From Marsupella aquatica (lineage: Eukaryota > Plantae > Marchantiophyta), in the NCBI GenBank assembly GCA_973895155.1, contig OZ316892.1:4858510-4922509 (forward strand): a DNA stretch of 64,000 nucleotides, in the 5' to 3' direction. Below, in pieces: positions 19,311-41,876 of the stretch. Position 1 is the first letter of the stretch. Every line of letters starts with the position of its first letter. Both the position numbers and the translations under genes were made by a program. Below the pieces are notes generated by a model, which saw only the letters and a program-made list of their open reading frames with translations, had not been told where the DNA came from and did not search any database.

Positions 19311-21289
19311 TGCACTAGTAGTAAAACTTGTTGTGGGCCCAAAATTTGACCCTAAACTAACTATCATGGTTTTATTTATATTAACATATTAATTTTCTTC
19401 TTTTGTTTTACAAACACTTAATTGGACTTTGAAATTTTATCTCACTGTTATATATGCAACCCTAGCCGTTTCCAAAGCTATCCTCATGCATGCCACCTTT
19501 TTGAAAACCCTAACTGTAACCTAAACACATGCATTCTCCGTCTTGTAAAGAAACTCTCTCAAACATTTCCATTCTACAAACTTTTCAAACAACTCTCTTT
19601 GCAAAACATTTTCAAGCTTGTCAAGAAGCAACTTTTGAACACTTTGTGAATAACACACCATCGGTAATTGTGATGCCAATGGGTTCTCAACTTTGCGAAT
19701 CAACTGGCTTCGCTAACTTGCGACTATTTATACTTCACAATATTGTGCGAAGCTAATAGGTTCACAAGATATATTTGAGTACATTATTATCGCTAAATTA
19801 TGAAACAAAAGAGATCCAAATGCAGTCGCGATGGTCGCGGATCCACAAATACTTTGCGAGACTAATAGTATCTGAAAGAGTTGCGAATTCAATCCGATCT
19901 CAAACAAATTACGAGGTATTTAGCTTCGCAACACTATGTTGCGAATCTTTGAGCATGGTTTATTGTGATGCGTGTTTGATCACAAAATATCTGAAGTCGA
20001 TGATATCGCAAGACCATCCCGGCGTAAAAAAAAAGCGTCGCAAAAGGGGCCAATATGTAGTAGTGATTGATTCTATTTTGTTATTTTATTTACAATGTTA
20101 AGCAAACATTCAAATCTATGACTTGCTGAGTAATCATAGTAAAAGGCTCAACTTTATGTTTTTGTTACCTTACTCATTCAAAAGTGCTAAACAATAGAAA
20201 ATCATTCCTTACATTTTCTTCCATGGGAATGAATACCGAGTTTTGGATCTTAAATATTAATTTATGTCCCTGGTGTGATACTACACCATTGCCTTTTCAT
20301 AAGAAACCTTTGACATCAGCCCCTTCTCTATCTCATCTGTAGGACATAAAGCTGATGACAACCTGAAGTGTCACTAGTAGAAAATGGGGCCTTTTATGAC
20401 TATGACACATATGACTTATGTGCTCAAATGACAAAATATGTAAATGACATAACATAAATGACATTGAAATGACTGTCCAAAATGACGGGGTGCAAAAAAT
20501 GACTAATACTTGCAATAGTGTCATTTAAACCAATGAGCCAAATGACTTTGACTGCTATAATGACAACAATCATGAGTTGTAGTCATTTTGGACAGTCTTT
20601 GTGAATGACACAATTAACAAAAACTCTGTCATATCAGTGTTTCACATATGGGAAGTCATTTCAGACGACGGTGACTAATGACTAATAAATCAAATATGCA
20701 AATATCAGTGTTTAAAAATGTTAGTAGTCATTTAAACCAAAAGTGATAAATGACATGATAAACAACATATGACTATTTTGAGGTTTATGGTTTAGTATAT
20801 GTTTTAGGGTTTAGGGTATGATTAGTCATCCAAAATGTATGGTAGTATATATAAAGACTAGTGGCACTCACATATTAGATTTGAAATACATTTAGAGACC
20901 TAACAAGCCTTCTTTTGTTGTGAGTCTCATCATTAAATTGATGTACAACTTAAAGGCTTGATAATCTCTAATAAGTATGTACATTTAAATATATACTTGC
21001 ACCCATTCATTACATCTTTCCTATATATGCCAAGGACTCCTGAAGTGTTTACATTCCTTAAGCTGTATTCACATTTCACATGTTTGAGTATATATGGGGG
21101 CATGCAAGGTTGCCAAATAACACTCTCTAGCATAGGTCTAGGGTTTAAGGTTTAGAATTTAGGTACTACATGCCTATATTTGCTCATGTCATTTTTTTCA
21201 ATATATTATTCATTTTATTTGCAAAGGATTCCCAATCATTTTTACTCTCACTCAACTTTCTAGTCATTTGACAAGTGCCGCTAGATGTC

Positions 21290-24200
21290 ATTTATGCAAA
21301 TGTCATTTGGGATGTCAATGTTGTGGTCATGTATGCCATGCAGAATATGACCCTTAAGAGCCTTTGGTGGCTGATTGACCCCATTGGTGATAGGGGCCGG
21401 CCATTAAGGATGATACCCACTTCACATGGTGCGGGATAGGGTACTTGACAACCCTAGGCCACTAGTTATGCCACTTGGCCTCCACAACTCTTTTTAAAAT
21501 ACACATTTTGCATCATGGAAGGGCATCACCCAACTTTGGGCAAAACACTCCCAAGTTGTATGACTTTGGAGTCATTTGCCCAAAGGGGTGCAAATCATTC
21601 TAATTTGGTCATTTGCAAGGGATCTTGAGTCATTTGTGCGTGTGACTAAAGGTTTTTGTCATTTGTGGAGTGCCGAGGGGTGTCATTTAAGCAAATGACA
21701 CAAAAATAAGTCATTGATGATGTCAATGCGGCAGTCAAGCATGCCATGGACAATATGACTCCTTGGGGCCTTTGGGGGCTTATTCGCAATATACGCGATC
21801 GTAGCCGGCCATTAGGGATGCTACCCACTCCACATGGTGCGGGATGGAGTACTTGTACACCCGGAGCCACTAGTTATGCCACTTGGCCTCCACAACACTT
21901 TTTAAAACACACATTTTGCATCATGGAAGGGCATCACCCAACTTTGGGCAAAACACTCCCAAGTTGTATGACTTTGGAGTCATTTGCCCAAAGGGGTGAA
22001 AATCATTCTAATTTGGTCATTTGCAAGGGATCTTGAGTCATTTGTGTGTGTGACTAAAGGTTTTTGTCATTTGTGGAGTGCCGAGGGGTGTCATTTAAGC
22101 AAATGACACAAAAATAAGTCATTGATGATGTCAATGCGGCAGTCAAGCATGCCATGGACAATATGACTCCTTGGGGCCTTTGGGGGCTTATTCGCAATAT
22201 CTGTGATTGCAGCTGGCCATTAGGGATGCTACCCACTCCACATGGTGCGGGATGGGGTACTTGTACACCCTGAGCCACTAGTTATGCCACTTGGCCTCCA
22301 CAACACTTTTTAAAACACACATTTTACATTGCGGAAGGGCATCACCCAACTTTGGGCAAAACACTCCCAAGTTGTATGACTTTGGAGTCATTTGCCCAAA
22401 GGGGTGCAAACCACTATTGTTCGTCATTGGCAAGGGATCTAAAGTCATTTGTGCACGTGACTAAGGGTTTGTGTCATTTAGGGAGTGTTGGGAGACGACA
22501 TTCATGCAAATGACACAAAAATAGGTCATTCATGATGTCACTATTGCAGTCATGCATGGCATGGACAATATGACTCTTTGGGGCCTCCGGGGGTCGACTG
22601 GCCATATCCATGATTGTAGCCCACCATTAGGGATGCTACCCACTCCACATGGTGTGCCACAGGGTACTCACCAACCTTGGGCCACTAGTTATGCTACTTG
22701 GCCTCCACAACACTTTTTAACACACACATTTTGCATCATGGAAGGGCATGGCCCAACTTTGGGCAAAACACTCCCAAGTTGTATGACTTTGGAGTCATTT
22801 GCCCAAAGGGGTGCAAACCACTTGCATTTTGTCATTTGCAAGGGATATAGAGTCATTTGTGCGATTGACTAAAAGTTTTTGTCATTTATGCAGTGCCAGG
22901 GGATGTCATATGAGCAAATGACACAAATAGGGGTCATTCATGATGTCACTGTTGCAGTCCTGCATGCCATGGACAATATGACTCTTTGGAGCCTCCGGGG
23001 GTTGACTGGCCATATCCATGATTGTAGCCCACCATTAGGGATGCTACCCACTCCACATGGTGTGCCACAGGGTACTCACCAACCTTGGGCCACTAGTTAT
23101 GCTACTTGGCCTCCACAACACTTTTTAACACACACATTTTGCATCATGGAAGGGCATGGCCCAACTTTGGGCAAAACACTCCCAAGTTGTATGACTTTGG
23201 AGTCATTTGCCCAAAGGGGTGCAAACCACTTGCATTTTGTCATTTGCAAGGGATATAGAGTCATTTGTGCGATTGACTAAAAGTTTTTGTCATTTATGCA
23301 GTGCCAGGGGATGTCATATGAGCAAATGACACAAATAGGGGTCATTCATGATGTCACTGTTGCAGTCCTGCATGCCATGGACAATATGACTCTTTGGGGC
23401 CTCCGGGGGTCGACTGGCCATATCCATGATTGTAGCCCACCATTAGGGATGCTACCCACTCCACATGGTGTGCGACAGGGTACTCAACAACCCTGGGCCA
23501 CTAGTTATGCCACTTGGCCTCCACAACACTTTTTAACACACACATTTTGCATCATGGAAGGGCATGGCCCAACTTTGGGCAAAACACTCCCAAGTTGTAT
23601 GACTTTGGAGTCATTTGCCCAAAGGGGTGCAAACCACTTGCATTTTGTCATTTGCAAGGGATATAGAGTCATTTGTGCGATTGACTAAAAGTTTTTGTCA
23701 TTTATGCAGTGCCAGGGGATGTCATATGAGCAAATGACACAAATAGGGGTCATTCATGATGTCAATAGTGCAGTCCTGCATACCATGGACAATATGACTC
23801 TTTGGGGCCTTCGGGGGTTGACTGGCCATATCCATGATTGTAGCCCACCATTAGGGATACTACCCACTCCACATGGTGTGCGACAGGGTACTCACCAACC
23901 CTGGGCCACTAGTTATGCCACTTGGCCTCCACAACACTTTTTAACACACACATTTTGCATCATGGAAGGGCATGGCCCAACTTTGGGCAAAACACTCCCA
24001 AGTTGTATGACTTTGGAGTCATTTGTCCAAAGGGGTCCAAATCACTCCCATATGGTCATTCCCAAGCCATTTTCAGTCAATTGTGCCTGTCAGTCATTGT
24101 GTTGGTCATTTTATGAGTGCCAGGATATGTCATTTATTCAAATGACACGGAAACGAGTCATTGTTCATGTCAATGTAGCAGTCATGCATGCCATGGACAA

Positions 24201-24900
24201 TATGACTCTTCTGGAACTCAGGCCGCTGATCGGCCATTGTTGGTGATAGGGGCCCGCCATTGAGCATGCTACCCACTCCACATGGTGTGGGATAGGGTGC
24301 CCCTCAATCCTGGGCCACTAGTTATCACTAATTGGCAAAGCAATAGTTTTTATGACCAAACTTTTGCACAATGATAGGGCATCACCCAACTTTGGGCAAA
24401 ACACTCCCAAGTTGTACGACTTTCAAGTCATTTGCCCAAAGGGGTGCAAACCACTCATATTTTGTCATTTGCAAGGGATTTTGCGTCATTTATGCAAGTG
24501 ACTGAATATTTTCGTCATTTATAGAGTCATAGGATACGTCATTCTTGCGTATGACACAAAAACAAGTCATTCATGATGTCAATGCGGTAGTCAAGCATGC
24601 CATGGACAATATGACCCGTTGGGAGTTTCGGGGGCTAATTTGCAATATCCGTGATTGTAGCCGGCCATTAGGGATGCTACCCACTCCACATGGTGCGGAA
24701 TGGGGTATTTGACAACCCTCGGCCACTAGTTATGCCAGTTGGCTTCCACAACACTTTTTAACACGCACATTCTGCATCATGGAAGGGCATCACTCAACTT
24801 TGGGCAAAACACTCCCAAGTTGTACGACTTACAAAAAATGGTCATTGATGTCAATGCAACAATCATGTAAGCCACACACAATATGACTCATTACACCCCT
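21290..24900. repeat. Tandem array of ~9 x 408-bp units, each with a conserved 52-bp hairpin
   Basis: Anchor CTTTGGGCAAAACACTCCCAAGTTGTA recurs at 21534, 21942, 22350, 22757, 23165, 23573, 23981, 24390 and 24798 (407-409 bp period). Confidence 0.95.
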
Positions 24901-27900
24901 TGATGACATATTCCGCCATATTGATGGTAGGAGCCAACCATGAGTTACATACACAAAACAATGATATATATAGGGTGTACAACGGAACATGCATAATTAT
25001 GTTCATAAAAGGGCAGGGTTTAGGGTGAAGTGTTAAAATTAGACTAAGTCAGTCCACAATTATGTTTGAATGGGATCCTTCCAAACATACCCCCAAGCTC
25101 GCCCCCAAGACCTCATCACTCAATAAGCTCCCCCTTGTATGTATTTATATGTTTTGGGGGTCATAATGGTTTAGGGTGCACATGCCCCCCCCCTTTCCTA
25201 AGGGTCTCCCAAGTCTTTTGATGGGGGATAGGATCACAGCATCTGGACCATCTATGTAGCATCTATAATCATCCCCTCATGCAATCGTGGCCCTTTGCAC
25301 AGGAATGTTATTTTACACTACCTCGCATTGGATGCCTTCCTTAGTCCGGTCAAACATCGAGAACAACATATCGAATGTTGCGTTTTGTGTCCTAGTCGGT
25401 GCAGGTTTACGTGAAGGGTTTACCGTTGCAATGCAGTGCGTGCTCAGGCAGAGTGCTCTCACATTGTCACCCGACAACATTAGGGCTGTGAATTTCCTCG
25501 TAGCGATAAGCGGGGAGTCAAGGTGCGACCTTCAGTTGGTGCTGTGGGAAGTGAGTGCACAACCTTGGTGCTGCGGGGAGTCAAGGTGCGACCTTGGTGC
25601 TGCAGGGAGTCGACGGACTAAACTGCGGGGAGTCGATCGACCTTGGTGCTGCATTCGTGGGTAGACATTGAAGGAGGGCCGCTAGGAGGGCCGCTGCGCT
25701 TGGCTGCCATTGTCGAGGCCCCGGGTCGAGGCAGGTAGGAGGACAGCTGCTACCATCATCGAGGGCAACCTGCTTGCAAAATGGGAGAGTGATGAGTTGT
25801 TGTGTGGGAGGTGCGGGTTTCACCATGGGGAGGTTTGCGCTTGGAGGTTGAGACCAAGCTCTTCATTGGAGGATTGCCTTATTTTGACTGCAAAGGTTTT
25901 TGAGAACCAGCTCAGTGGAACTCAGCTTGCTCAGTGGAAACTTGCAGCTTCTTGTCACTAAGGTTGGCTACTTACAGAGCGAGCTTGGTGGAGAAAGGAC
26001 TCCGCAACACCGTTGCTCCCTCGGACTATCTACAGAGCGCAAGCTCCTGTATGTGCAAGTTGAGACCCGGGACCTTCAATGTTGTAGCTGCCTCCAACCT
26101 GCAACGCTGCTGCAACGCCATTGCTCGCAAGTTGCTACAGAGCGCAACCTCTTGCGACTTCCACCTCAAAGGTATGACCTGGATGATTGGAGTCAGTGGA
26201 TAGTTGCACATTCTCTGTCCAATTTATGTGGCACTACGTCCCCCAAGTAAGTATCTGGCCGTGCTGCAATGTTGTGCTTCGATGTTGTGCTTTGAGCTGC
26301 GATGAAGGTGGACATGCATTAGAGATACCCTGTGTGTCCCAAGCACTAGAATAGACTGTGGCCTACTTTGCTTTGTCTGTCCTTGACGTTGCTTGATGCC
26401 ACACACAGCGGCTTCATCACATCAAGTGTTCCGCAGACTCTCGTCTCTTATTTCAAGCTTCCTATTTCTACCAACATTGCTCTGAGTCTTAAAAAACTTT
26501 AATGATCGATTCCTCTTCAATGCTCTCTGTTGCTCTCCAGAAGTTTGCGTTCCTGATTGTATTCTTGTTCATTTTCTATTCATTTTTGTTCAGTTTCTGT
26601 CCTTGTCTGGCCATACCTCAATTTTTGTCTTTTCTCATACTCTGCTTACTGTGCTCTGTCATGCAGTATACTCATTTACTACAGATTGAATGTGGAGCCG
26701 ATTGGAGGTGGGCATTGGAGTTGCAACGACCAGCAAGGTGAGTCCAAGAGGATTGCATCCTCAAGCTTAGGGAAAGAAAAGCTGTTTTTTCCTTGTATCC
26801 CCCGTTCTATCCTACTCCTCCTGCATGCAATAATTTCTGACTGTATTCTCGTTTCTTACCTGTGTTGGACATACGTGCATATCTAAAGAGACTAGTTGTT
26901 GCTGAGGTGCGATTGGATCTGCATTGGAGCTGCATTCCTGCCTGCATCATCCAAAGATTCTAAGGAGGATTGGAGCTCTGTTTTACAATTCGCGCCATTT
27001 GTAAGTATCTTGTGCTCAAATACTAGAGAGCAGTCTTACAAATTTTTTGCGATGCTGTCAGAGGTGTCTAGATTGTTGGACTATTGAATTGGTTGCCCAT
27101 TCTTTGTGTTCTTCCTATTGCTGGTACTTATTTTTTGTGGAACATCCTAGTGAATTTAAGCTACGCAAATTGCCATAAGTCACAAAGGCATCTTTCATGC
27201 CATCTGGATATTGTGCCATTAAATTTTACGTTCCATTTCTTACATGATTGTGTTGGACTGACATTGGACCGTCCTGCATATCTGAAGAGACTTGTTGCTG
27301 CACCGGTGCGGTTAGTATTGGATAACCCTAAAGCTGCATTCCCATAGGCTGCAGCATCCAGGGATTCTAAGGAAGATTGGACCCTTGTTTGGTGGTGCTG
27401 CTACACAAGAAGGCTCCAGTGGAGGTGGGCTTGCTTGCATCCATGTCGTGTGTTTGTTGTTGTGATCGATTGGGTTGCTGTTGAGATTTATTTTTCTTGA
27501 ATTTAGAAAATGCTTAATTGAGTCGTCTTGACTGTTTTTTCTTCACTAAGTAACAAGGCGGCCCCAAGAGACTCTGAATAAAATCCCTAAATCCTTGAAA
27601 GAACATTATTTTAAGAGTTGTGGTGACTTTCTACAGTGGTGACTTGATGTGGAGGTGAGCTTGTTTCTCAGTGAAGGGGGGCCCAGTCCACTGTACTCAG
27701 ATAATGACTTGTGTGCAGTGGCCAGTATACCAGTTCCTTTCTTTGTGCAAGTAAGACCTGTGAATGTTTAAATGAGTTTTTAAAAGGATAGAGGTTTTAA
27801 TCCGATGTAGTTAGCCCCCCCCCCCCAAGAAGAGCTACAGCCCTGTCTATACTATCCCCAGTCGCTACTGAATTCTACCTGCTCCAACAAGTATTGAATG

Positions 27901-28244
27901 AGTACAATTTCAGTGAACAATATTTAATTTGTGTGCTCTATGGTCTTCACAGTGGTTGCCTTTTTGAATGAACTTCTCTTTGACTCTTCTGAACATTTTT
28001 TCCAAGTCTGCCTGACACTAAACCCTGAACTGCTTGCTCTCTGTGCAGAGCACCCTTAAGCCAAAGCCAAGTTATTTTTGACATTGCTTGTACTCCGTGA
28101 GATCGAGGTGGGCAGGACATCTCCTGATTTGTACTAAGACCTCTTACGGTAAGTACACTATGTCCAAATACCATCTTTGTACTTGTCTGTTGCCCTTCTC
28201 CATACACTTCTTGTAATATTCAAGGTAATTGTGCAGATCCACGC

Positions 28245-28958
28245 ATGACATCGGGCATGGCACGAGCTGCTGCTGCCTGGCTGGATCCAAAGTTTGCCCA
28301 TAAAGAACACCTTCGCTTGGATCCCCCTTGTTGTTTTGAATGTGATGAGGGAGGTACTGTTTTGTTCTGCGATGGGCCTTGCAGTCGTCATTTCCATTAC
28401 TTAGTTCATGGCCAGCAAGCTCCTCAGGAGCCTGATGGCCATGGGCCTGAGTGCACACCCGTTGCCATTTCTAGAGGGCATGATTGGGCCAAGGAGTGGC
28501 TCTATGACCTCTGTCAGCAGAACCAAGGTCGTTGCTTTGCTTGTGGACTACTTGGCCGAACCGTAAAGCCCACTGCAGATGAGCCCCTTGTGGTCCAGTG
28601 TGCACAAGATGACTGCTCTTCTTTTTATCACGTGGGTTGTCTGCGGACCATACTGAGGGCAAGGGAGTTGCCTCTCCTGGGGTACGCACAAAACTCAGAT
28701 GCACATCCCGCTGCTCTGATATGCCCAAGGCATTATTGTGATGTTTGCAAGGAGTATCGGGATGGCATCTGGGAATTCATCCAGTGTCGTAGGTGCCCTC
28801 GTGCGTGGTGCAGGGATGAGGGACCAGAGGCAGACAAACACCTCAAGAGAGGGGTGAAGGGTAGAGAAACGTGGGATATTGGTCCATGGCGTATGGTGTA
28901 CTGCAATCGCCATGTCATTCCAGAGAGTTCTGATGTGCCACCTCATGATTTCAAATAG
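28245..28958 (+). CDS. Tandem PHD-finger protein/exon (EDM2/NSD-like arrangement) carried inside CACTA-2
   Basis: CFECDEGGTVLFCDGPCSRHFH ... CFACGLLG ... VVQCAQDDCSSFYHVGC ... ICPRHYCDVC ... IQCRRCPRAWC ... VYCNRH. A splice-acceptor-like TGTGCAG lies just upstream. Confidence 0.8.
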   Translation: MTSGMARAAAAWLDPKFAHKEHLRLDPPCCFECDEGGTVLFCDGPCSRHFHYLVHGQQAPQEPDGHGPECTPVAISRGHDWAKEWLYDLCQQNQGRCFACGLLGRTVKPTADEPLVVQCAQDDCSSFYHVGCLRTILRARELPLLGYAQNSDAHPAALICPRHYCDVCKEYRDGIWEFIQCRRCPRAWCRDEGPEADKHLKRGVKGRETWDIGPWRMVYCNRHVIPESSDVPPHDFK

Positions 28959-31331
28959 ATGATAAGCCTTAGTTCAGTTGTGTCGAAAACACTGCCTAGT
29001 ACAAAGTATATTGAACTTGTCATGGGTTAAGGACTTCTGGAGGATACTGGACACAAAATGGACTAAAGGGGTACAGTGGAGCACCAGAGTTTTTTGTTGG
29101 ATGAAAATGGAGTGAAGTGTCAAGTTGGATTCAATGGACTAAACTGAAATGGACTAAAGCAGGATGATTGTATGAAATGGACTAAACTGCCTGATTGTAT
29201 GAAGTGGACTAAATTGTCTCACTGTATGAAGTGGACTACACCTGTGGTTGAGACTGTTTGCCCTAGAGTAGAGCAACACTTAGTGGAGAAAGACCAGTAT
29301 CAATTCTGATTGTATGATGACTGTTACAGCTGTACTCAGCAATATATGAACAGCCTGAATGGAGATACATAACAAAAGAACTAAAACACTAAAAAACATC
29401 ACACTGACCTTAGAGGCAAGACCTAAAATCCACCCAAGGTCTTAAAAATGTTGTTGTCCCTTTGAGGGATCTGGCCATAAGAAGGCAAACTTTACATAAT
29501 GTCTCTCAAGTTTTGTAGTACTGCCTTTCTAAACCTACAGCCTTAAGAACTCCTTCAACCCTTCAACCTGGGTCGATCTCTGAACTTCGTCATTTTTGAT
29601 AATTTGAAGACTGAGTGACTGTATTTTATTCTGACTATTGCACAAAAACACAGTATGTGACATTATGTAGATTACATGAAATCCTTTGAGGCCCTTGCCC
29701 ATATGTATCCTGGTTTGTGTGGGGATGATGAAATGTTGTGATCTGAATCTATTCTAGTACCTGCCCAAAACAAACTGCCTTGATGAAGATGATCATTTCA
29801 ACAAATGAATTCAAAAGTCACAGAATGAAGGAGGGGATTGTTGGACATTATGATTAATGTTTGTTATTGTATTCACTGTTTTGAAGGGTCTGAGATTGCT
29901 GACTACTGTGAACACCCTTGCCCTAAATCTGGTTGAGGTAGGCCTCTATTTGGTCTTGTAAACTTTTGTCATTTTCATTTGTACAATTCAGGTCTCCTTC
30001 AAATACCCATTGTCACTTACAGTATGAATTGAGATTAGGTAACGTGTACCCAAGTAAATAATTTCTGATCAAGTTGCTAATATGTAATCTGTTTACCTTT
30101 TGTTGGCATGCATGTACTATTCTATTGGCAATGAAGGCTAAAGTGGGAGCTGCCTTTACCTCAGTTGGAGTACTGTGCCTCAAATGTATGTCTATTCTTC
30201 ACTTGTGCACACATTTGCTTCACATGACGGTCTAGAAGATGGTATGGAAGGGTTTTGGAGTTGTCTAGAACAAATTCATATGCTCTGCAAGATGTGACAG
30301 AAGAAAGACGTGCAATTGTGTTTTTGATTAGGTAGTGCTGCAATCATGGCTTCTTCTAGCCAGGCTGGGTCACATAACACTGCACATACAATAGAGGCAA
30401 ACAACCTGAGAAGATTACCTCTTTCCCATCCACGTCGAATACAGCGTCGTGATGATAACTTATGGGCTCGGGAACAGACAGCTTGCTCTGGTAGTGTTGA
30501 TCATAGAATGTATTGCTCTTGCATGGAATGCAAAGGGATTGTTAAGACTACTCGAAAGACCAGTCGACAACATCTTCTTAAATATGGCCGCTACCCTGCC
30601 TGTCGAGTGTGGGTAGGAGAGGGTGAAGACTCTTCTGATGAGGAGTGGAGATCCAATTACATTCGTAACTCTGGTCCAGAGGCACTAAGGGCAGGAATGT
30701 CTCGAGAGGCATTCCACTCAGGCCAGCCATCAATAGATGTTGAAGAGCAGGTCAGAGTTTTACTTCAGGAGACATTGGCAAGAGCTTCTGAAGAGTCTGA
30801 CGAATATGTGGATAATGATCCTCCTTTTGATATAGATTCAATGTTTCAAAATGATGAGAATGAGGCAGGTCCACCCTCTGCTGAGACCAGGGCTGAGGAC
30901 ACACCTGCAGCAGGGCATCCTATAAATCCTGTCCCTCTGCAAGGGTCTTTAGAAGAAGCCATGAGACCCTTATTTCCAGGCAGTAAGACTGATGTAGTTT
31001 CCTTCATGTTGTTGTTTTTAAACATCTGTCACAACAATAGGTTCTCAAACACGGGAGTGAATGCCATGCTGTCTTTGTTGACTGAGCATGGAATGCCAAC
31101 AGAGCACACTCTCCCTAAAAACCTATATGCTGCAAAACAATTACTAAGAAAATTGGGTTTAGACTATGAGAGAATCCCAGTCTGTGAGAATGGATGTATG
31201 TTGTTTAGAAATGAGACTGCAGAGTTGGACAATTGTTCCAAGTGTAATCAGCCAAAGATGAAGTTAGTGGGGAATTCTTTACAGCCTGCAAAGGTCTTGA
31301 GATATTTCCCTATAATCCCTCGATTGAAGAG

Positions 31332-34300
31332 TGTGATGCCTAGACAGGAATCACTCGGCCGGTTAAGTGGGTAAAGCAGGAAGGCACCCTAGGAACACCT
31401 TAGTATAGTGACAAAACAAGGAAAATATAAACAATTAGGGGCAACCATGGAACCCGGGCAGAGGCCGGAGGTAAGGCTGAGGGTGAAAACCCGATTAGGG
31501 TTAGGGCGCGTTAAGCATCGGCGGCTAGGAAGGATCAACGGGAAGAAGGACCGGCAGAGGAGAGGGGTAAGAAGCGCTTGCAGGAGATGGTGGCTCATTT
31601 GCGAGCACGAACTAGGCAGACGACTACGGGAGGCCAACTACTGTCAGCTGCTTAGGCAAGCACTCGGGGAGAGAGTAGATACCGACGATCAACCTAAGGA
31701 GGGTATGAGCAACGTCAATCAAGCGGCACATTTCTGGGGATGCCTGTTCGAACGGGCAACTGAGTACATCAAGACTTACGAGGACGAGGAGTCAGAAAGG
31801 GCAGCTCGAGAACGGCAGGAGCTCGCTCGATTGTGGGAGCTGCAGAAGACGGCTTTCTTAGGAGGCGAACTCATCAAGAACGAGTTCCTGTGGACGCCTA
31901 CTTCCAATCAACTCGACGATCTTCTGTTTTGCAAAGACAGCGTCGTCGGCATCTGAGAGGCCATCAAGAACTGCAACGACATACACTGGGAATTAAAGGG
32001 TAGCACGGAAAGGTGGACCCGGGCAACGGTGCTAGGAGAAACCTCCACGGCAACAGAGATGAAGAGGAAGGGAGCCGTCAACGATGAAGCCACCCCGGCA
32101 AAAAGAACGAGGTCGGCGGCACCAAAGAAGCCAGCCGAGCAGCAGAGCAGGAGGCAGGGAGAAGCCGAAGAGGAGGAGGTCGATCCCATCAAGGCCATTC
32201 CAACCAGGGATGACACCTGGAAGGGCTGGGCGGCAACCCTACCGGTGGAGGTGCAACTACATTTTGCATGGGAGGAGGATGCATGCTTTACGGCCATGCA
32301 GACCAAGAAGTACCAAGGCTTCATGGCCGGATCCGGCTTGGAGGCCTTTGTAAGATTACCATGGCTGAAGCCGGAGGTACCGGAGTCAGACCTATTAGAA
32401 TTCGTGGGGTCATGGGAACCCGAGACCAATTGCACGAGGATATATGGGAAGGATTTCTATCTTACTCCCAAGGTGATTGCCGAAGTGTTTGGCTTGCCGA
32501 TGGGCAATAAGACCAAAGTTGATACCAGGAAGACCTTGCCTGACAAGGAGTTCCGGTCGTTCCCCGGGCCATCAACGAAGAATGGCTTCTTCCGGAACAC
32601 CTGCACCAACCCGCACATAGGAGAGATGATCGACTTCTTGCGGGTGACCATGCATTGTAACTTGCCGAGGGCAGAGATCGGCAAGGCACAGGTCTATCTG
32701 GCAGAAAGGCCAGACCCAAGCCGGGACTACAACGGGTACCTCCTCAACCAATTGAAGAAGATCTTAAAGGAGGAGCAGCAGGTAATCGGCATGGGGAGCG
32801 TGTCGCGGCTTGGCTATCACATGCCGCTGTTGTGCCGGTATGCCAGAGGTCAGACTTTTGCCCCGGTACTTCCCCTGCAGGTAAGGGCACCCGAGGAAGC
32901 TCCAACGCCGAGGCCGTTGGCTGAGAAGCCTCAACCACCTGTTAGTCCTACGATCGAGCAGGTGTTTAGGCCCAGGAAGGAAGACTTGCCGATGCAGCAA
33001 CCAGGCATGCAGAGTCTGCTGAAACTACTGGAGAAAGAAAAGAGATCGGCATCGGCAAAAACAACGGCAACGGCAACAATGCAGGACACTACTACAGAGG
33101 TAGGCCTACACCGGCTCACAAGAGAAAACCCCTTTGCTGGAGACAAGGAGAGAATCAGGCCAGAATCCAAGCCAGGTGTTCGAATGTACGTGGGAACCTC
33201 AAGCTCCGAATCTGAGGCAGAATTGCCTGAAGCTCCTACCGAGGAAGAGGAGAGGGAGAAGCCGGAAATCCAAGAGGTAGAGGAGGCAGTGGAGGACTGC
33301 AGCCATGATAATTCCGGCTATGGGTCGGACCATCACGTTCCAGGAGTAAGGACCTGTGGCCGGTTTGTCCCCACACTTCCAAGGGTAGTGCGAGGGGACC
33401 CCAACCAGCAGAGTAGCCCTGAGTCTCCCCCACCAGATGTTGCTCCCCCGAGCTTCGACGGCATAAAACAGACGGTGCAGGAATTTCAGGAGCGAATCAA
33501 GCAGGAGGAAGAGGCCGCCCTGGCTAAGGAAAAGGATTTACCAGGAGGAGATTGGCCGGAGGACATCAGGCGGCTAGCCGAAAAAGGAAGCAAACCTCTA
33601 GCCACGATTGAAGAGATCCGCAGGACGGCTTGGGAGCAGAGGCCACGATGGGCGATGCCGATCACTTCTACTTACTCCACCTACGCTAAGAATAGAGCCA
33701 TGGAGTATGGTGAGATGTGTGGGGAACTTGCGCTCGGCATCTTTGGAGAGGAGTTGGAGGTAGGACCCTTTTTCCATAGGGAGCAGTTGGAGAAGCACCA
33801 ATTAGAAGAAGCGGTGGCTTTAGAGAGAAGCAAGAAGGACGAGGTCATTCGGCGGCTTAGGAGGATGGAAGCCGAGATTGAAGATCTAAGGGCGGCCAAG
33901 AAAGCCCAAGATGAACTGCGGATTAAACGACATGAGCTGAACATCATGCAGGGGCAGTTGGACGCCGCGCAGGCTGATAATCAGAATATCAAGGATAAAC
34001 TGACTCAGACGCAGGAAGAGTTGGCCGACACGATCAAAGAAAGGGAAAAGTGGAAGCAAGAGCTGAAGAATACAGAGGAGGCCCACATAACAGCCAACAG
34101 CCGGGCCATGGCGGAGACCCAAAGAAAGGAATGGGCGTTGAAAGGGGAGCTCGAGAAAATCCGCGGAGCCCTTGAGCAGAAGGAGGTCGAGTTAGGGAAA
34201 TCCTATCAAGGGATTATGGCGCTGCAGCAGGAGCTTGCGTCCCTGACGGCCAGCTTCAAGGCCGACCTAAGGGAGAAGGACGAGATGCTCGAACAGACTT

Positions 34301-35981
34301 ACGCCAAGATGAACCAGATGGAGTCTGTCATCATTGCAGAGCTCGACAAGGAGCTAAGAGCAACCCAGGAGGAGAAGGCTACCTTGAAGAAGGAATTGGA
34401 GGAAGCCCACAGGGAGCAGGAGGAGGCCAAAAACGAGCTGGAGGGGGCACGTAAGGACCTGGATGAAACCCAAGAGGAGTTGGAGGAAATCACGAGGAAG
34501 ATGGAGAACCTACAGCGGCGGGCCGACAACCAAACAGAGCGGCTGAAGAAACAAGCCGCAGTATTTAAATGCTTAGCTGCAGCAGGTCCATCTCCTGTTG
34601 GGACAAACCAGTTACCAGGGGTGGTAATTGCCGAAGGACAAGCCGCGCCACCTGCACCAGTGCCGGAAGTAAGTGGGAAGGGGAAGGGACCAGCTGCCGA
34701 GCCACCAACGAAGAAGAAGCGGAAACCTTCAGGGTCAAGGAGTAATACGACTTCACAGGCCGTGGTGATCAAGGAGGTAGACCCAGCACCGACCCCAGAC
34801 AGGGTCACGGCTAAGGATCCAACTACCCTAGGGGAAGGGGAAGCCGAAGCCGTGGGAGTGGCTGAAGCCGAAGCCGTGGGAGTGGCTGAGGCCAAAGCCG
34901 TGGGTATTGCCGAGGCCGGTGTCGAGGCTGAAGCCGAAAGTGGACCCAGTCAGGCCGATGGAGAGTTGACTCGGTCAAGGGCAGGTAATCTGTCAGTAGG
35001 CGGGCCAACGGCAGTGGCTGAGGAGGAAGTGTTGGGGGCGTCCATTGAGGATCCACCACCGGTGTCGTGACGGTGCAAGGGCGCCGTTCCTTTTAGGGAG
35101 GGCGGACGTGGAGGGAGGAGGCGTGAATGGGCAGGGCGGGCACGGATCTCCACGTTTAGGATTAGGATCAGAACCAGGAGCGGCCCTGACACTTAGCTTA
35201 GTGGGATTGCGGTCCCACTAGTAGGAGCAACACTTGTGCTCCTGCCTTGCTGTACATAGGTAGATTCGGGCAAGTAGATTACTGTTAAGTAGATTAGGCT
35301 TACGATGCAAAGAATGGCGGATCCACTACCAGGATAAGTACCTGGGCAGCGGGGAGCTCAGGGCCTCTTCTTTAGCAAGTTTTTAGTTTGCACCAGCCGG
35401 GCTGGGATCAAGTAGTACGAGAAGCTCTCGGTTAGTCATACAGTGACCCTTGTGTATATTCATGTTTCCTCATGCCTAAGAGCTGAATAGAGTTGGCCTC
35501 ACGGCTTAGTTCGCAGAACTTGTGTATGAGATGTACTGTTTGTATGGCAAGTGCATGGTATGACTCAGTCAGAATGAGTCATTTTGCTATTTGTGTGTCG
35601 CATTAACTTGTGTGAAGAGTGCCCACATCAACAGAAGGAAGGAAAGTAAGCAGGGGAGTGAGAGTTGGATGTGTCGAGCTGAGAGAGGTCTTAGCGGCTT
35701 AACCAAGCCTATTGGGGATCATTCCGGCGGCGGAATCCAAACATACCTAACAAGATGGAGGGGAAGACAAGGGAAGGCCTAGATTAGGTCGGCTACGTAT
35801 CTCATGACCCGATGAAGGATCTGTCCAGTATATGTGTGTAAAATGTTAATAGTAGTAGTAGAAGGTTAGCAGCGTCCCATGCCGCTAAGCCGCGGAAACG
35901 GCCTCGCCAAGCACGAAACCTGCGGGAATCGGCTTGAGCTGGGGGGTTTCTTGGGTTTAGGGAGCCATGGGACGCACCACA
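31332..35981 (+). mobile_element. Family A long copy (A, 4650 bp): giant solo-LTR-like unit
   Basis: Ends TGTGATGC...GCACCACA (7/8 inverted match). Perfect 5-bp TSD AAGAG (31327-31331 / 35982-35986). Removing it restores the TnpD frame (PRLKRLY). No internal direct repeats, gag or pol seen. Strand given is the ORF strand. Confidence 0.95.
31447..35070 (+). pseudogene. ~1207-codon accessory protein ORF (conserved globular domain, acidic linker, long coiled coil, NLS-like KKKRK) with one premature stop
   Basis: The 31408-31956 and 32029-35070 ORFs are in the same frame. The only stop is TGA at 31954, where copy B has CGA. Confidence 0.85.
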
Positions 35982-38867
35982 AAGAGATTGTATGCCACTA
36001 AGGGTACATCTAAGCTAATGACTTGGCATCATGAGAACAAGAGCAAGGACAACATGGTGCGACATCCAGCAGATTCAAAGGCATGGAAACATGTGGACAC
36101 AGAGATCGACCCTGCTTTTGCTGCTGAGCCAAGGAATGTGCGAATGGGATTGGCACTTGATGGGGTAAATCCATTTGGGAATAATTCTACTGCCTGGTCT
36201 ACATGGCCAATCCTGCTATTGAATTATAATATCCCTCCTTGGCTTTCCACAAAGAAGTTCTTTGTCATGCTGGCTCTTCTAATTCCAGGTCCTGTGTCTG
36301 TAAGCGAGGAACAATTTGATGTATACATGGCTCCACTTGTGGATGATCTTGAGACATTATGGTCAGAAGGAGTAGATTGTTTTGATGTTCTACCAAGGCT
36401 AGGATTGCAGCAACAGTTCAAGCTAAGGGCTTCAGTATTGTGGACAATCAATGATTATCCTGCATATGGATTAGTCTCTGGCCAACAACATGCAGGGTAC
36501 AAAGGATGTGTGGTTTGTGGGCCAAATTGTGTGGCACAAGGTTCAAAACAGTTGGGCAAGTTACTGTTTGCTGGCCATCGTCGCTGGTTACCACATAGGC
36601 ACTATTTTCGCAGAGAGGAAGTGGCAAAATACTTTAATGGTGAGGTAGAGGCACGAGCTGCACCATGTAGAGTGTCCAGCTCTGATAGGAAACGTTGGGG
36701 AGAAAAGACCGCTAAATATGTGGAGAAGAAACCAGGGAATGCGCTGGATGATGAAAACTCTCCAGTAAAGAAGAATGGAGTGAAGAGGGTTACTGGATTA
36801 TACAAGCTGCCATACTGGAGTGTAAGTATCTGGTTCCCCATACTGAATCCCTTAGTGTGTAATGTTAAGTACCAAAGAGTAATATTTCTGATTCTAACTT
36901 AGTTTGTATTGAACTGTGCATCCAATGCAGAAACTTCTCATCAACCATTGTTTGGATCCCATGCACTGTGAGAAGAATCTTGCACACAACATTGTGCACA
37001 CTATTTTGGGGACAAAGGATACTCCTTCTGTTCGAGAAGACATGAAAGTCATGGACGTGCGGGAACACCTGTGGCTGGTTCCAAATCCAGATCCAAAAAA
37101 AGATTCAAAGATCATGCCGCCAGCCCCATACTGCCTCAATAAGATAGAGAAGACTAAGTTCTTAGAGGTATTGTTGACCTTTAAAGGGCCCACTGGTTTC
37201 AGCAGTTCTTTGGCTAAATGTGTCACAGTTAAGAAGAAGTTATCAGGGCTGAAATCTCACGATTTCCATCACCTCATGCAACAAATCCTTCCATTGGCAA
37301 CAATGGGATTACTTGATGAAGGTGTTCGGTTGGCCATAGCCAGAGTGAGCAATGTGTGGCGTACCATCTGTGCCAAGGTTTGGGATCCCTCACAGTACAA
37401 CTCTGTGATGTTGGATGTTGCATTCACACTCTGCCTTATGGAAATTCATTTCCCACCAAGCTTCTTTGATGTCATGACCCATCTGTTGATTCATCTGGTT
37501 CAGGAACTAGACATCTGTGGTCCAGTGAACATTAGATGGATGTACCCAATAGAAAGATATCTAAAGACCTTGAAGGGTTATGTTCGAAACAAGGCACGTC
37601 CAGAGGCTTCTATGGCTGAAGGCTACCTTCTGGATGAATCTTTAGGATTCTTTTCTGAATACATGATCGATGTTAAGGGGACAGGAATGAGAACATGGGA
37701 CTTGGAGGAGAATCCTGGTGTTGCAGGCATTGTCTCAGAAGGAGCTGGAAAACAGATCATCTTGGAGTGGAATGATATGATAGCTATGCATCATTACATA
37801 CTGGAGAATGAAGAGCTGGTGGAACCATGGTATAGGTATGAGCATGGTTTATATTGTTAAGTTCTCTGTTGTTTATTATTAAACAGAATTGAGTTTTGAG
37901 CAAAAATTGTGTGGGCCTAGGAGCTGACTGTCATTCTTGCCATGCAGGGTTTATGATGATCAAAAGGAGGCAGTTACCAAGCACAGAGCAGATTTCCGAA
38001 AAGAATGGATGAAGAATCCAGGAAATCGGAGGAATCCTGTGCCTTATCCCTCTGATTTGGATGAGTTGCCTCCTTTTAGAGAATGGTTTGAAGTGACAAT
38101 TAGAAGGCATAATTTTGAGAATGAGTTTGAACGAATGGTGTTGGCAGCGTATAGTGTACCACCTAGTCTGAAGGCACTGCGGTACAGGGCCTGCAGAGCC
38201 TATGGGCACCATTGGAGGACCATTCCATCACTAGGTTTCTTGATTGATTGTGATTCATCTGGGTTCAAGACTTTTGATTCTGGGATGGCTTGTACATTCA
38301 CTGAGAAGCGGGTGATTAGGTCAGGGACAACAGTTGATGAATCTGTACAATATATGGGGATGTTGACAGACATCTTAGTGTTGAACTATGGGCCTCTGAT
38401 AAAGGAAGTGGTCCTTTTCAAAGGAAGGTGGGCAAACCCATCTTGGACTCCCAAAGCCACTGCAAGTATGAGATATGATGCGTCTGGATTGTGGCAAGTA
38501 AATTTTCAGAAGGAGCTGGGTGCTTCCAAGAAAATGGACTATGTATTGCCACGACAGATAGAATAGGTGTTTTTTTACCCAAATGATAAGGGGATTGCAT
38601 GGAGGACAATCCTCCACAAGGAATCCAGGTCTACAAGGGTACTGGGTGATTACATGGAAATTGATTTCCATGATACTATGGATGACAATGCTAAGTTTCA
38701 CATAGAGTTGGCAGAAGCCTGTACAACTAGACAAGAGCCTAGACCAAGTACTACAGACAAAGGAAAAAGAAAGTATAAAAGGAAATGAATGATTTGAAGA
38801 TACTGTACAGTCCGGTTTTATTTGGTTGGGAGTGGGATTATACTAACATGGCATGCCATGGTCTAGC

Positions 38868-41800: not shown

Positions 41801-41876
41801 AGAGAAACAACTCTGCTTACGGAATGTGTTAGGAATGAATACATTGTGGAATGCTAGGTTTCTTCGGAAGTGTTGA
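38868..41876 (+). CDS. CACTA-2 TnpA-like multi-exon gene; exon structure approximate, integrity not verified
   Basis: YEEERNKKVADNNRKF, PQYVDPLKWARLVDHFDSP...SAVMKARRAKV...HFGRGG (Ptta/En/Spm-type), and C-terminal VVARGEV...VRVSVKAVYCGDATLPMP...LWNARFL. Several GT-AG introns. Confidence 0.75.

What the first reader, a model, noticed from the sequence alone, without database searches (positions are those of the whole stretch)
28245..28958. CACTA transposon carries an EDM2-like multi-PHD histone-reader exon
Seen: an uninterrupted 237-aa Cys/His-rich ORF inside the TSD-defined CACTA-2, on the same strand as and upstream of TnpD. The series CxxCDxGGxxxxCxGxCxRxFH / CFxCxxLG / CxxxxCxxFYHxxC / CPxHxCxVC / CRRCP matches my recollection of the composite PHD fingers of plant EDM2, with related fingers in NSD methyltransferases. 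Known: EDM2 binds H3K9me2-containing chromatin and promotes full-length transcript processing through heterochromatic introns (ASI1-AIPP1-EDM2). Inference: the element may have captured a heterochromatin reader for anti-silencing or targeting. One expected Cys appears as Tyr (WLYDLC), so this copy may be decaying.
Basis: partly seen in the sequence, partly recalled or inferred. Interest (0 to 1): 0.78.

Follow-up and report, generated by a model that had tools for sequence, protein, structure and literature searches.

The report
Transposon-borne EDM2-type histone reader gene
A CACTA transposon in what is probably a liverwort genome carries a small gene made only of the three-finger PHD module of the plant heterochromatin reader EDM2; diverged copies keep it intact, so it likely serves the transposon, perhaps by reading or masking silencing marks, although this copy is damaged.

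Summary
It lies inside a 22.6-kb CACTA element (20372-42950, 3-bp TSD TGT), upstream of the transposase and on the same strand.

The EDM2/NSD homology also holds. Pfam PHD_NSD scores above its cutoff. An exhaustive HMMER search aligns the whole module (aa 26-235) to the PHD module of proteins that NCBI names ENHANCED DOWNY MILDEW 2-like. The fold model matches NSD1/2/3 PHD-C5HCH tandems.

It is not an EDM2 orthologue, because the RFD and C-terminal domains are absent. It looks like a complete intron-less coding sequence rather than an exon. Relatives at 67% and 54% identity share its start and stop.

Contigs of public runs carry many distinct copies under four organism labels. Their indels are in frame, and 14 of the 32 listed substitutions are synonymous. 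So the gene is not confined to this copy and does not look neutral.

This copy is decaying. Zinc ligand Cys87 is Tyr here but Cys in the contigs of all four runs laid. A nested 4.65-kb insertion splits the transposase.

Histone binding and an anti-silencing role are untested. No RNA data were available. My searches found no published report of such an element.

The parts
20372..42950 (+). CACTA (En/Spm-type) element 'CACTA-2', 22,579 bp, genes on the + strand
   Evidence: CACTA termini with 19 of 25 bases complementary, and TGT on both flanks (read). Subterminal AAATGAC fields. Transposase_21 and DUF4218 inside.
20369..20371 (.). Left copy of the 3-bp target-site duplication TGT. The right copy is at 42951-42953.
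20426..24520 (.). Left subterminal field of AAATGAC motifs (55 matches). It includes a tandem array of about 408-bp units at about 21217-24865.
42218..42826 (.). Right subterminal field of AAATGAC motifs (10 matches), with 12-bp tandem repeats at 42186-42655
28149..28236 (+). Possible 88-nt 5'-UTR intron (GTAAGT...TGTGCAG) just upstream of the start codon. Inferred, not shown.
   Evidence: Sequence read. GTAAGTACAC recurs in the loose ends of otherwise unlike contigs from X4 and X7, and TTGTGCAG recurs in one from X2. No RNA data.
28245..28958 (+). Coding sequence of the 237-aa three-finger PHD protein (P0001). Finger 1 is about aa 29-90, finger 2 (PHD_NSD) aa 94-163, and finger 3 (variant PHD) aa 165-223. 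A second ATG at 28257 aligns with the start of P0003.
28503..28505 (+). TAT codon (Tyr87) in place of the zinc-ligand Cys of finger 1. A change at 28504 from A to G gives TGT.
   Evidence: P0002 and P0003 have Cys here. G at 28504 is seen in 8 contigs of X2, 1 of X4, 1 of X6 and 2 of X7.
29059..29213 (+). Cluster of five exact TGGACTAAA motifs between the PHD gene and the transposase gene. Role unknown.
   Evidence: 5 of the window's 6 exact matches lie here. A diverged copy in X2 also shows ATGGACTAAA after the ORF (loose end at 29041).
30328..31326 (+). N-terminal part of the TnpD-type transposase frame (Transpos_assoc, below cutoff)
   Evidence: The frame continues into 35982-36902 once the nested insertion is removed.
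31332..35981 (+). Nested high-copy 4,650-bp insertion with TG...CA ends and a 5-bp TSD AAGAG (31327-31331 and 35982-35986). It splits the transposase frame.
   Evidence: Contigs of X2 and X4 join 31326 to 35982. Ends and TSD read. A second copy lies at 43191-47876.
35982..36902 (+). Transposase_21 (tnp2) core of TnpD
   Evidence: E 2.5e-71
36913..37860 (+). DUF4218 part of the CACTA transposase
   Evidence: E 1.6e-35
39875..40498 (+). Open frame of 208 aa downstream of TnpD. A possible TnpA-like gene part (weak lead only).
   Evidence: No Pfam match. The atlas lists at rank 6 a cluster in which 32% of members carry Transposase_24, score 0.88.

Best explanation
Window 28245-28958 is a complete small gene carried by a CACTA transposon family. 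It encodes only the three-finger PHD module of EDM2-like plant chromatin readers. It is likely kept by selection as an accessory protein of the element. It is predicted to bind histone H3 tails and would help the element cope with heterochromatic silencing.

Shown:
- The frame, its zinc-finger motifs and its place inside a TIR/TSD-bounded CACTA element.
- End-to-end homology of the module to EDM2-like proteins, and a fold match to NSD PHD-C5HCH tandems.
- Many diverged copies in public runs, with the frame kept open.
- Damage to this copy: Cys87Tyr, and a transposase split by a nested insertion.

Inferred:
- The protein reads H3-tail marks.
- Because it has a reader but no effector domain, it most likely acts in trans on the element's own chromatin. 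It would mask repressive marks from host readers, or stand in for the host EDM2-type reader so that long transposase transcripts are still made from heterochromatic copies. Tethering the transposition complex to marked chromatin is the second choice.
For: Frame and motifs.

Element: ends, TSD and subterminal repeats. Transposase domains.

Homology:
- PF22908 PHD_NSD scores 38 bits against a cutoff of 23.9.
- The exhaustive HMMER search gave 175 hits at E <= 1e-3 and 81 at E <= 1e-10. Most align query aa 26-235 to about aa 215-430 of proteins of 1000-1350 aa.
- All 20 of 20 hits scanned carry PHD_NSD, and 9 of those 20 also carry DNMT1-RFD.
- Named members are 'protein ENHANCED DOWNY MILDEW 2-like' from Mangifera, Salvia, Asparagus, Diospyros and Triticum/Aegilops.

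Fold: the AlphaFold model built on 27 sequences has pLDDT 78.7 and pTM 0.78. All 4 PDB matches at E <= 1e-3 are NSD2, NSD1 or NSD3 PHD-C5HCH tandems, one of them bound to an H3K9me3 peptide. Target-normalised TM is 0.61-0.68.

Constraint:
- P0002 (67% identity) and P0003 (54%) keep the same start, the same stop and every zinc ligand.
- On 901 bases, 84 contigs of X2 and 96 of X4 were laid, spanning from 99% or more down to under 90% identity. A single variant, T>A at 28317, is carried by 9 contigs of X2 and 13 of X4.
- Runs under four organism labels hold it.
- The listed indels inside the frame fit a net 3-nt deletion in each run that shows them.
- Of the 32 listed substitutions in the frame, 14 are synonymous. 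This gives omega of about 0.4-0.5, with P 0.007-0.049 for kappa 1-4.

Origin:
- A host MoaC exon in the window is closest to liverwort proteins: Calypogeia 80%, Marchantia 73%.
- The nearest relatives outside the transposon clade are liverwort RFD-PHD proteins, E 5e-24 to 3e-16.
- With four long rows left out, the 5 transposon rows, 6 liverwort rows and P0017 form one side of a branch with SH-aLRT 95.

EDM2 biology, from passages read in PMC7529245: EDM2 binds H3K9me2 and recruits ASI1/IBM2 and EDM3/AIPP1 to intronic heterochromatin, which promotes full-length transcripts.
Against: - There are no expression or splicing data. None of the 7 listed runs is on record as RNA.
- No second copy was seen joined to a transposase. 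Contigs over the repeat are short, and the relatives P0002-P0006 sit on contigs of 1.1-3.2 kb whose context I could not read. Linkage in other copies rests only on a continuous rise in summed contig depth from about 27835 to 42000. The tool warns that this depth is not a copy number.
- The substitution test uses only the 40 rows shown of 122, and its P value is borderline at high kappa.
- In the whole transposon clade, finger 3 has Cys where EDM2-like proteins have His. It also lacks the next Cys, which is E, D or K instead. PHDvar_NSD and PHD-1st_NSD score below their cutoffs. That finger may be remodelled or weakened.
- The protein lacks the RFD and the C-terminal half of EDM2, so EDM2's partner contacts cannot be assumed.
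- This copy carries Cys87Tyr and is probably not functional itself.
- The transposon clade sits on a long stem (1.21 changes per column), so its placement beside the liverwort genes could be long-branch attraction. The AU test did not finish.
Confidence: 0.55

Rival explanations
1. Neutral passenger. The element picked up a fragment of a host EDM2-like gene, as Pack-CACTA elements do, and the fragment does nothing for the element and is slowly decaying.
For: CACTA elements are known to capture host fragments (Pack-CACTA; PMC6379663 and PMC8903248, abstracts seen in the listing). Only one module of the host protein is present. This copy has lost a zinc ligand. Finger 3 departs from the EDM2 pattern.
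Against: Relatives at 67% and 54% identity keep an open frame of the same extent and all zinc ligands. The listed indels inside the frame fit a net 3-nt deletion. There is an excess of synonymous changes. The element is autonomous in type because it carries a transposase, so it is not a Pack element.
Confidence: 0.12
2. A host gene family. Small PHD-only EDM2-like proteins are ordinary host genes. This one merely lies within, or was recently swallowed whole by, one CACTA copy. The many copies seen in reads would be host paralogues.
For: PHD-only short relatives exist as annotated host genes. Examples are Marchantia Mp4g03050 at 280 aa and grass proteins of 252-339 aa named EDM2 or EDM2-like. 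No other copy was seen physically joined to a transposase.
Against: The frame lies 7.9 kb inside the left end and 14 kb inside the right end of a TSD-bounded element. Summed contig depth stays raised without a break from the frame through the spacer into the transposase. A diverged copy is followed by the same ATGGACTAAA spacer motif. The clade has no member among NCBI-annotated proteins and is found only in unannotated assemblies, as is usual for masked repeats. This last point is weak evidence.
Confidence: 0.13
3. It is the element's second transposition protein, a functional stand-in for TnpA. It would bind the subterminal AAATGAC repeats or the transposase, rather than histones.
For: No Pfam Transposase_24 (TnpA) domain was found in any frame of 75 codons or more in 24900-42950 outside the nested insertion. 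The element has dense subterminal motifs that need a binding protein.
Against: The fold and family are those of histone-tail-reading PHD tandems. A conserved region downstream of TnpD (38600-42000, depth like that of TnpD) holds frames that may encode a divergent TnpA. One of them gives a weak atlas lead to Transposase_24.
Confidence: 0.08
4. It is an exon of a longer transcript. It would be spliced to upstream exons or to TnpD, giving a transposase or other protein fused to the reader module.
For: En/Spm makes its proteins by alternative splicing of one primary transcript (recalled). A conserved GTAAGT...CAG pair lies just upstream.
Against: The frame ends in a stop at the same place in all three relatives, and conserved ATGs open it. 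The frame upstream of the putative intron is closed at 28079-28081 (my reading of the sequence). Nothing else in the window matches the longer liverwort relatives.
Confidence: 0.1

Closest known systems
EDM2 / EDM2-like proteins of land plants (Arabidopsis ENHANCED DOWNY MILDEW 2)
   Same: The whole three-finger module (the '2 1/2 atypical PHD fingers' of PMC7529245) aligns end to end at 30-36% identity, E about 1e-14 to 1e-16. It shares the signature motifs CxxCDxGG, CFxCGxLG, FYHxxC, CPxHxC and CRRCP.
   Different: There is no DNMT1-RFD domain and no C-terminal ELP/methyltransferase-like half. The protein is 237 aa against about 1000-1350 aa. In finger 3 the His is Cys and the following Cys is lost. 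It is encoded inside a transposon.
Liverwort RFD-PHD proteins (Marchantia polymorpha Mp1g03210, 768 aa; Riccia, Calypogeia and M. paleacea homologues) and Mp4g03050 (280 aa, PHD module only)
   Same: These are the nearest relatives outside the transposon clade, E 5e-24 to 8e-19 and 32-35% identity. They fall on the same side of a branch with SH-aLRT 95. They come from the same plant lineage as the window's host gene.
   Different: All but Mp4g03050 carry an EDM2-type RFD (E 5e-10 to 1.5e-16 against my own profile) and long N-terminal regions that are absent from the window. They keep the CRRCPxAWHxxC pattern in finger 3.
NSD1/2/3 PHD5(PHDv)-C5HCH tandem domains (PDB 2naa, 9gbf, 4gng)
   Same: Same Pfam families: PHD_NSD above its cutoff, PHDvar_NSD and PHD-1st_NSD below theirs. 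They are the best structural matches. The EDM2/NSD1 likeness is in print (PMC3776765, passages read).
   Different: About 20-23% identity. NSD proteins carry PWWP and SET domains, and none is present here. The NSD tandem covers only fingers 2-3 (query-normalised TM 0.23-0.29).
Transposon-encoded factors that act on chromatin: VANC of Arabidopsis VANDAL (Mutator) elements, and TET/JBP dioxygenases in fungal DNA transposons
   Same: An accessory gene beside the transposase that would act on the host's epigenetic silencing. VANC: abstracts of PMC5735166 and PMC10398659 in the listing. TET/JBP: abstract of PMC12730594 in the listing.
   Different: There is no sequence relation. VANC binds DNA motifs, and TET/JBP is an enzyme. 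This protein is predicted to be a histone-tail reader without an effector domain, and its activity is untested.
Pack-CACTA elements (gene-fragment carriers)
   Same: A CACTA element holding sequence of host-gene origin (PMC6379663, abstract in the listing).
   Different: Pack elements are non-autonomous and carry fragments. This element has a transposase gene, and the captured module is a complete, conserved open frame.

Membership tests
Pfam PF22908 PHD_NSD (NSD/EDM2-type PHD finger) | Profile score above the curated cutoff | tested here: met
   38 bits against 23.9, E 2e-9, aa 94-163, covering profile positions 2-57 of 57
Pfam PF23004 PHDvar_NSD and PF23011 PHD-1st_NSD | Profile score above the curated cutoff (27 bits each) | tested here: inconclusive
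   18.7 and 17.2 bits, both below cutoff. EDM2-like relatives score 24-33 bits. The fold model matches PHD-C5HCH tandems.
EDM2 / EDM2-like protein family | Composite module of 2 1/2 atypical PHD fingers | tested here: met
   Query aa 26-235 aligns to the whole module of proteins named EDM2-like. Alignment A2 shows the shared motifs.
EDM2 / EDM2-like protein family | N-terminal DNMT1-RFD-like domain | tested here: not met
   No RFD in P0001. My own RFD profile does not hit it, though it hits 93 of the 166 stored proteins. No RFD-like stretch elsewhere in the window.
EDM2 / EDM2-like protein family | C-terminal ELP (N6-adenine methyltransferase-like) domain and proline-rich tail (PMC7529245) | tested here: not met
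   The frame stops 14 residues after the last zinc ligand (His223). The relatives P0002 and P0003 stop at the same place.
NSD histone methyltransferases | SET domain (with PWWP domains) | tested here: not met
   Pfam finds only PHD-type families
PHD zinc finger (C4HC3 cross-brace) | All eight zinc ligands present in each finger | tested here: not met
   Finger 2 is complete. Finger 1 has Tyr87 for ligand 7 in this copy only. Finger 3 has Cys189 in place of His and lacks the next Cys throughout the transposon clade.
CACTA / En-Spm superfamily element | CACTA... terminal inverted repeats and a 3-bp target-site duplication | tested here: met
CACTA / En-Spm superfamily element | Subterminal repeat fields | tested here: met
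   65 of the window's 79 AAATGAC matches lie in the two subterminal fields, against 13.6 expected for the whole window
CACTA / En-Spm superfamily element | TnpD-type transposase (Transposase_21, DUF4218, Transpos_assoc) | tested here: met
   E 2.5e-71, 1.6e-35 and 9.9e-05, the last below its cutoff. The frame is split by a nested insertion.
CACTA / En-Spm superfamily element | TnpA-type second protein (Pfam Transposase_24) | tested here: inconclusive
   No Pfam match. One weak atlas lead for 39875-40498.
Pack-CACTA | Non-autonomous, with no transposase gene | tested here: not met
   A transposase gene is present
Histone H3-tail reader (functional class) | Binding to modified H3 peptides | not testable with these tools
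   Only fold likeness to NSD3 PHD5-C5HCH bound to an H3K9me3 peptide, and the published EDM2 binding of H3K9me2

The most novel reading that the evidence does not exclude
A liverwort CACTA family stole the reader head of the host's own EDM2-type heterochromatin pathway and uses it as a stand-alone decoy or adaptor. The protein sits on H3K9-methylated chromatin of the element. There it either blocks host readers or replaces EDM2, so that full-length transposase mRNA is still made from silenced copies riddled with nested insertions. This would be a transposon-encoded anti-silencing factor that is a histone reader, and none turned up in my literature searches.
Probability: 0.25. Interest if true: 0.85.

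Novelty: new variant of a known kind. Interest (0 to 1): 0.62.

Why it matters
Transposons that fight back against epigenetic silencing are known from very few systems. VANC in Arabidopsis Mutator-like elements is one, and TET/JBP enzymes in fungal DNA transposons are another.

This would be a different kind of factor. It is a conserved gene carried by a transposon and made only of the histone-reading module of EDM2. EDM2 is the host factor that lets transcription proceed through heterochromatic transposons. The gene would be a natural, minimal reader-only version of the EDM2 module.

It would give a direct handle on three questions. What does the EDM2 PHD module recognise in bryophytes? Do transposons mimic host chromatin readers? 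How do very long DNA transposons stay expressed once they are methylated?

If it proves to be a passenger instead, it is still a clean dated example of CACTA-mediated domain capture in liverworts.

Tried and rejected
- Window's own genome: none is held, so copies could not be mapped in an assembly.
- Word-based search for longer relatives: none found. The exhaustive HMMER search then found them.
- PDB sequence search: no hit at E <= 1.
- First fold, on 3 sequences: pLDDT 32.3, unusable.
- JGI metagenome contig scan with alignment A1: 201 pattern matches, none confirmed.
- RNA evidence: no RNA holder was listed among the 7 runs, so expression and splicing were not tested.
- Contigs joining the PHD frame to the transposase in other copies: none among the pieces shown. 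Most pieces are not shown, and contigs over the repeat are short.
- A second copy of the frame in the window: none. tblastn gave only the locus itself, plus one antisense hit at E 0.003 inside it.
- N-terminal parts of the liverwort relatives in the window: none.
- Pfam on 22 further frames of the element: nothing at E <= 0.01.
- Earlier findings of this scan: three look-ups, nothing to show.
- AU test of the grouping of transposon and liverwort rows: not finished in 288 s.
- Literature: six searches and passages of four papers. None of the rows listed, and no passage read, described a CACTA element carrying an EDM2-type PHD gene. Only 9 to 15 of up to 247 matching papers were listed per search, and subscription journals are not covered.
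- NSD membership: considered and rejected, because there is no SET domain.
- Pack-CACTA: considered and rejected, because a transposase is present.
Full report
**1. The observation**

Window 28245-28958 on the + strand is an ATG-to-TAG frame of 237 codons. The stop-to-stop frame opens at 28128. It holds 19 Cys and 13 His.

The frame lies in a CACTA element that I place at 20372-42950:
- The ends read CACTAGTAGAAAAT... and, as reverse complement, CACTAGTGGAAAAT..., with 19 of 25 terminal bases matching.
- The trinucleotide TGT flanks both ends.
- The heptamer AAATGAC occurs 79 times in the window against 13.6 +/- 3.5 expected, and 0 of 100 shuffles reach 79. Of these, 55 lie in 20426-24520 and 10 in 42218-42826. 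This is the subterminal architecture typical of CACTA elements.

Downstream on the same strand lie three transposase parts:
- a Transpos_assoc frame at 30328-31374 (22.9 bits, below the cutoff of 27.7);
- Transposase_21 at 35961-36902 (E 2.5e-71);
- DUF4218 at 36913-37860 (E 1.6e-35).

**2. What the protein is**

*Pfam and sequence searches.* Pfam places residues 94-163 in PF22908 PHD_NSD (38 bits, cutoff 23.9). It gives below-cutoff matches of residues 165-188 to PHDvar_NSD and of residues 29-56 to PHD-1st_NSD. A word-based search found only two proteins of similar length, P0002 (247 aa, 67% identity) and P0003 (226 aa, 54%), and no longer ones.

*Exhaustive search.* The HMMER search over 1.84 billion representatives found 175 proteins at E <= 1e-3 and 81 at E <= 1e-10. 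In most of them, query residues 26-235, the entire module, align to about residues 215-430 of proteins of 1000-1350 aa. All 20 of 20 hits that I scanned carry PHD_NSD. Nine of those 20 also carry an N-terminal DNMT1-RFD domain.

*Names.* Where the sources give names, they are 'protein ENHANCED DOWNY MILDEW 2-like' (Mangifera, Salvia, Asparagus, Diospyros) or 'ENHANCED DOWNY MILDEW 2' (Aegilops and Triticum short forms). A profile I built from seven EDM2-like N-termini marks 93 of the 166 stored proteins as RFD-bearing.

*Fold.* A model on three sequences failed (pLDDT 32.3). A model on 27 sequences reached pLDDT 78.7 and pTM 0.78. Its only four PDB matches at E <= 1e-3 are the PHD-C5HCH tandems of NSD2 (9gbf, two chains), NSD1 (2naa) and NSD3 bound to an H3K9me3 peptide (4gng). 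Target-normalised TM is 0.61-0.68.

*Literature.* The likeness of the EDM2 and NSD1 fingers, including the C4HC2H last finger, is in print (PMC3776765, passages read).

**3. What it is not**

The protein has no RFD, no ELP/methyltransferase-like C-terminal half and no SET domain. It stops 14 residues after the last zinc ligand. It is a reader module on its own, not an EDM2 or NSD orthologue.

It is also probably not an exon of a larger coding sequence:
- P0002 and P0003 stop at the same place. P0002 opens with the same MT, and P0003 begins at a Met that aligns with Met5 of the window protein.
- A contig of run X6 also runs into an ATG at that place (loose end at 28293).
- Nine longer relatives searched against the window by tblastn match only 28242-28991.

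Just upstream lies an 88-nt GTAAGT...TGTGCAG pair (28149-28236). Its donor motif recurs in otherwise unalignable copies (loose ends at 28168 and 28211). I take this as a possible leader intron, unproven.

**4. Is it only in this copy, and is it neutral?**

The window itself holds no second copy. No genome is held for it. Seven public runs from five studies, under four coded organism labels, hold parts of 27500-31500.

Contigs laid on 28150-29050:
- 84 contigs of X2 and 96 of X4 align, spread from 99% or more down to under 90% identity.
- A single variant, T>A at 28317, is carried by 9 contigs in X2 and 13 in X4. So many distinct copies exist within a run.
- Runs X6 and X7, under two further organism labels, contribute 16 and 8 contigs.

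Inside the frame all listed indels fall at 28416-28425. Their pattern fits one net 3-nt deletion in each run that shows them (3, or 1+1+1, or 2+1), which matches the one-residue gap in P0002. The only other indel lies after the stop.

Of the 40 substitution rows shown (82 more were not shown), 32 lie in the frame. Of these, 14 are synonymous and 18 are not. That gives omega of about 0.38-0.52, with a one-sided binomial P of 0.007-0.049 for kappa 1-4.

None of the 18 replacements removes a zinc ligand, and one restores a ligand. Together with open frames at 67% and 54% identity that keep all ligands, this speaks for purifying selection.

Caveats:
- The substitution list is partial.
- No contig shown joins another PHD copy to a transposase.
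- The rise in summed contig depth from about 27835 through the spacer into the transposase region fits one repeated unit, but the tool warns that this depth is not a copy number.

**5. This copy is damaged**

Codon 87 is TAT (Tyr). G at 28504, which gives TGT (Cys), is carried by 8 contigs of X2 (851 of 1152 summed depth), by the single contig of X4, by the single contig of X6 and by both contigs of X7. P0002 and P0003 have Cys here. Residue 87 is ligand 7 of finger 1, so that finger is probably unstable in this copy.

The transposase frame is split by a 4,650-bp insertion at 31332-35981. The insertion has TG...CA ends and a 5-bp duplication AAGAG. Contigs of X2 and X4 join 31326 directly to 35982. 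With the insertion removed, the frame reads through from the Transpos_assoc part into Transposase_21.

**6. Origin**

A MoaC exon of a host gene at 7194-7682 (-) is closest to Calypogeia fissa (80%), Marchantia polymorpha (73%) and Riccia (73% and 71%). The window is therefore probably from a liverwort.

The nearest relatives of the PHD protein outside its own clade are liverwort proteins:
- Mp1g03210 (768 aa, E 5e-24);
- Riccia (692 aa);
- Calypogeia (747 and 691 aa);
- Marchantia paleacea (619 aa);
- the PHD-only Mp4g03050 (280 aa).

All but Mp4g03050 match my EDM2-type RFD profile, at E 5e-10 to 1.5e-16.

In a tree of 113 module sequences, the five transposon-clade rows form one side of a branch (SH-aLRT 96) on a long stem of 1.21. 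Eight isoform or cluster-member rows had been left out of that tree. After also leaving out four very long rows (P0147, P0127, P0151, P0120), the five rows group with the six liverwort rows and P0017 against all other EDM2-like proteins (SH-aLRT 95). The AU test did not finish, and long-branch attraction cannot be excluded.

I infer capture of the reader module from a liverwort RFD-PHD gene, followed by long independent evolution.

One derived feature marks the whole transposon clade. EDM2-like proteins and the liverwort genes have CRRCPxxYH/WHxxC in finger 3. The transposon proteins have CRRCPRAWC followed by E, D or K where the Cys would be, with a conserved His ten residues on.

**7. How it most likely works**

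Shown: a conserved, transposon-resident gene for a reader-only EDM2-type PHD module.

Established for the family (PMC7529245, passages read): EDM2 binds H3K9me2. [quoted passage not shown]

Inferred: the transposon protein binds H3 tails. It has no effector domain, so it would act in trans on the element's own chromatin. It could mask repressive marks from host readers. Or it could substitute for the host reader, so that the long transposase transcript of a 22-kb element that is prone to nested insertions is completed. Tethering the transposition complex to marked chromatin is the next choice.

I give the core reading (a selected accessory gene that reads chromatin) about 0.55. I give the specific anti-silencing reading about 0.25.

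Rivals and their weights:
- neutral passenger, 0.12;
- host gene family that merely lies in the element, 0.13;
- exon of a longer transcript, 0.10;
- TnpA substitute that binds DNA, 0.08.

A weak atlas lead suggests a divergent TnpA-like frame at 39875-40498, which counts against the TnpA rival.

**8. Comparison and novelty**

The closest known families are EDM2-like proteins (same module, other domains missing), the liverwort RFD-PHD proteins, and the NSD PHD-C5HCH tandems (same fold).

Functionally the nearest precedents are transposon-encoded factors that act on silencing:
- VANC of VANDAL elements (abstracts of PMC5735166 and PMC10398659, listing);
- TET/JBP dioxygenases in fungal DNA transposons (abstract of PMC12730594, listing).

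From recall only, the chromodomains of chromoviral integrases are another case of a reader domain in a transposon.

Six full-text searches and passages of four papers turned up no CACTA element with an EDM2-type PHD gene among the rows listed. Each search listed only 9 to 15 of up to 247 matching papers. The library also lacks most subscription journals, so this is not proof of absence.

I class the finding as a new variant of a known kind, with interest 0.62. The sequence-level finding is solid, and it bears on the arms race between transposons and host silencing. Function, expression and linkage in other copies are still open.

Noticed in passing
window 31332-35981 and 43191-47876: Two copies (91% identical) of a 4.65-kb element with TG...CA ends and 5-bp target duplications (AAGAG and CACAT). 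Part of a third copy lies inverted at 16083-17033. Summed contig depth is roughly 100 times that of the surrounding CACTA. The element has no internal LTR-like direct repeats. It holds a frame of about 1,225 codons broken by one stop (31393-35070), predicted coiled-coil, with no Pfam family beyond weak ATG16-like matches. It could be a very long solo LTR or an unclassified element.
   Followed up: partly
window 29059-29213: Five exact TGGACTAAA motifs fall within 155 bp between the PHD gene and the transposase gene, out of 6 exact matches in the whole window. A diverged copy in run X2 shows the same motif after its PHD frame. This may be a binding-site cluster or a promoter element.
   Followed up: partly
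window 21217-24865: A tandem array of about nine 408-bp units (63-97% identical), each carrying several AAATGAC motifs, sits inside the left subterminal region of the CACTA element. This is unusually long for a subterminal array.
   Followed up: no
window 12283-14409 (+): Reverse transcriptase (RVT_1, E 6.7e-18) followed by zf-RVT (E 2.9e-13) in two adjacent frames. This is a LINE-type retroelement fragment.
   Followed up: no
window 7194-7682 (-): An exon of a host MoaC (cyclic pyranopterin monophosphate synthase) gene. It is 80% identical to Calypogeia fissa and 73% to Marchantia polymorpha, which places the window in the liverworts.
   Followed up: yes
window 2767-50963 and neighbours (inverted repeats 2798-4182 against 10410-11348, 14714-15176, 20051-20285, 49302-50973 and 52443-54164): Many inverted and direct repeat pairs of 95-300 bp at 66-95% identity, and a second CACTA-like pair of ends (2767 and 50963, 22 of 25 bases, no matching TSD). 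Further CACTA-related or other repeat copies appear to be interleaved around CACTA-2.
   Followed up: no
proteins P0010 (Marchantia Mp4g03050, 280 aa) and the P0109 cluster (grasses, 252-339 aa): PHD-module-only short relatives of EDM2 also exist as annotated genes in Marchantia and in Triticeae. I did not check whether any of these is itself carried by a transposon.
   Followed up: no
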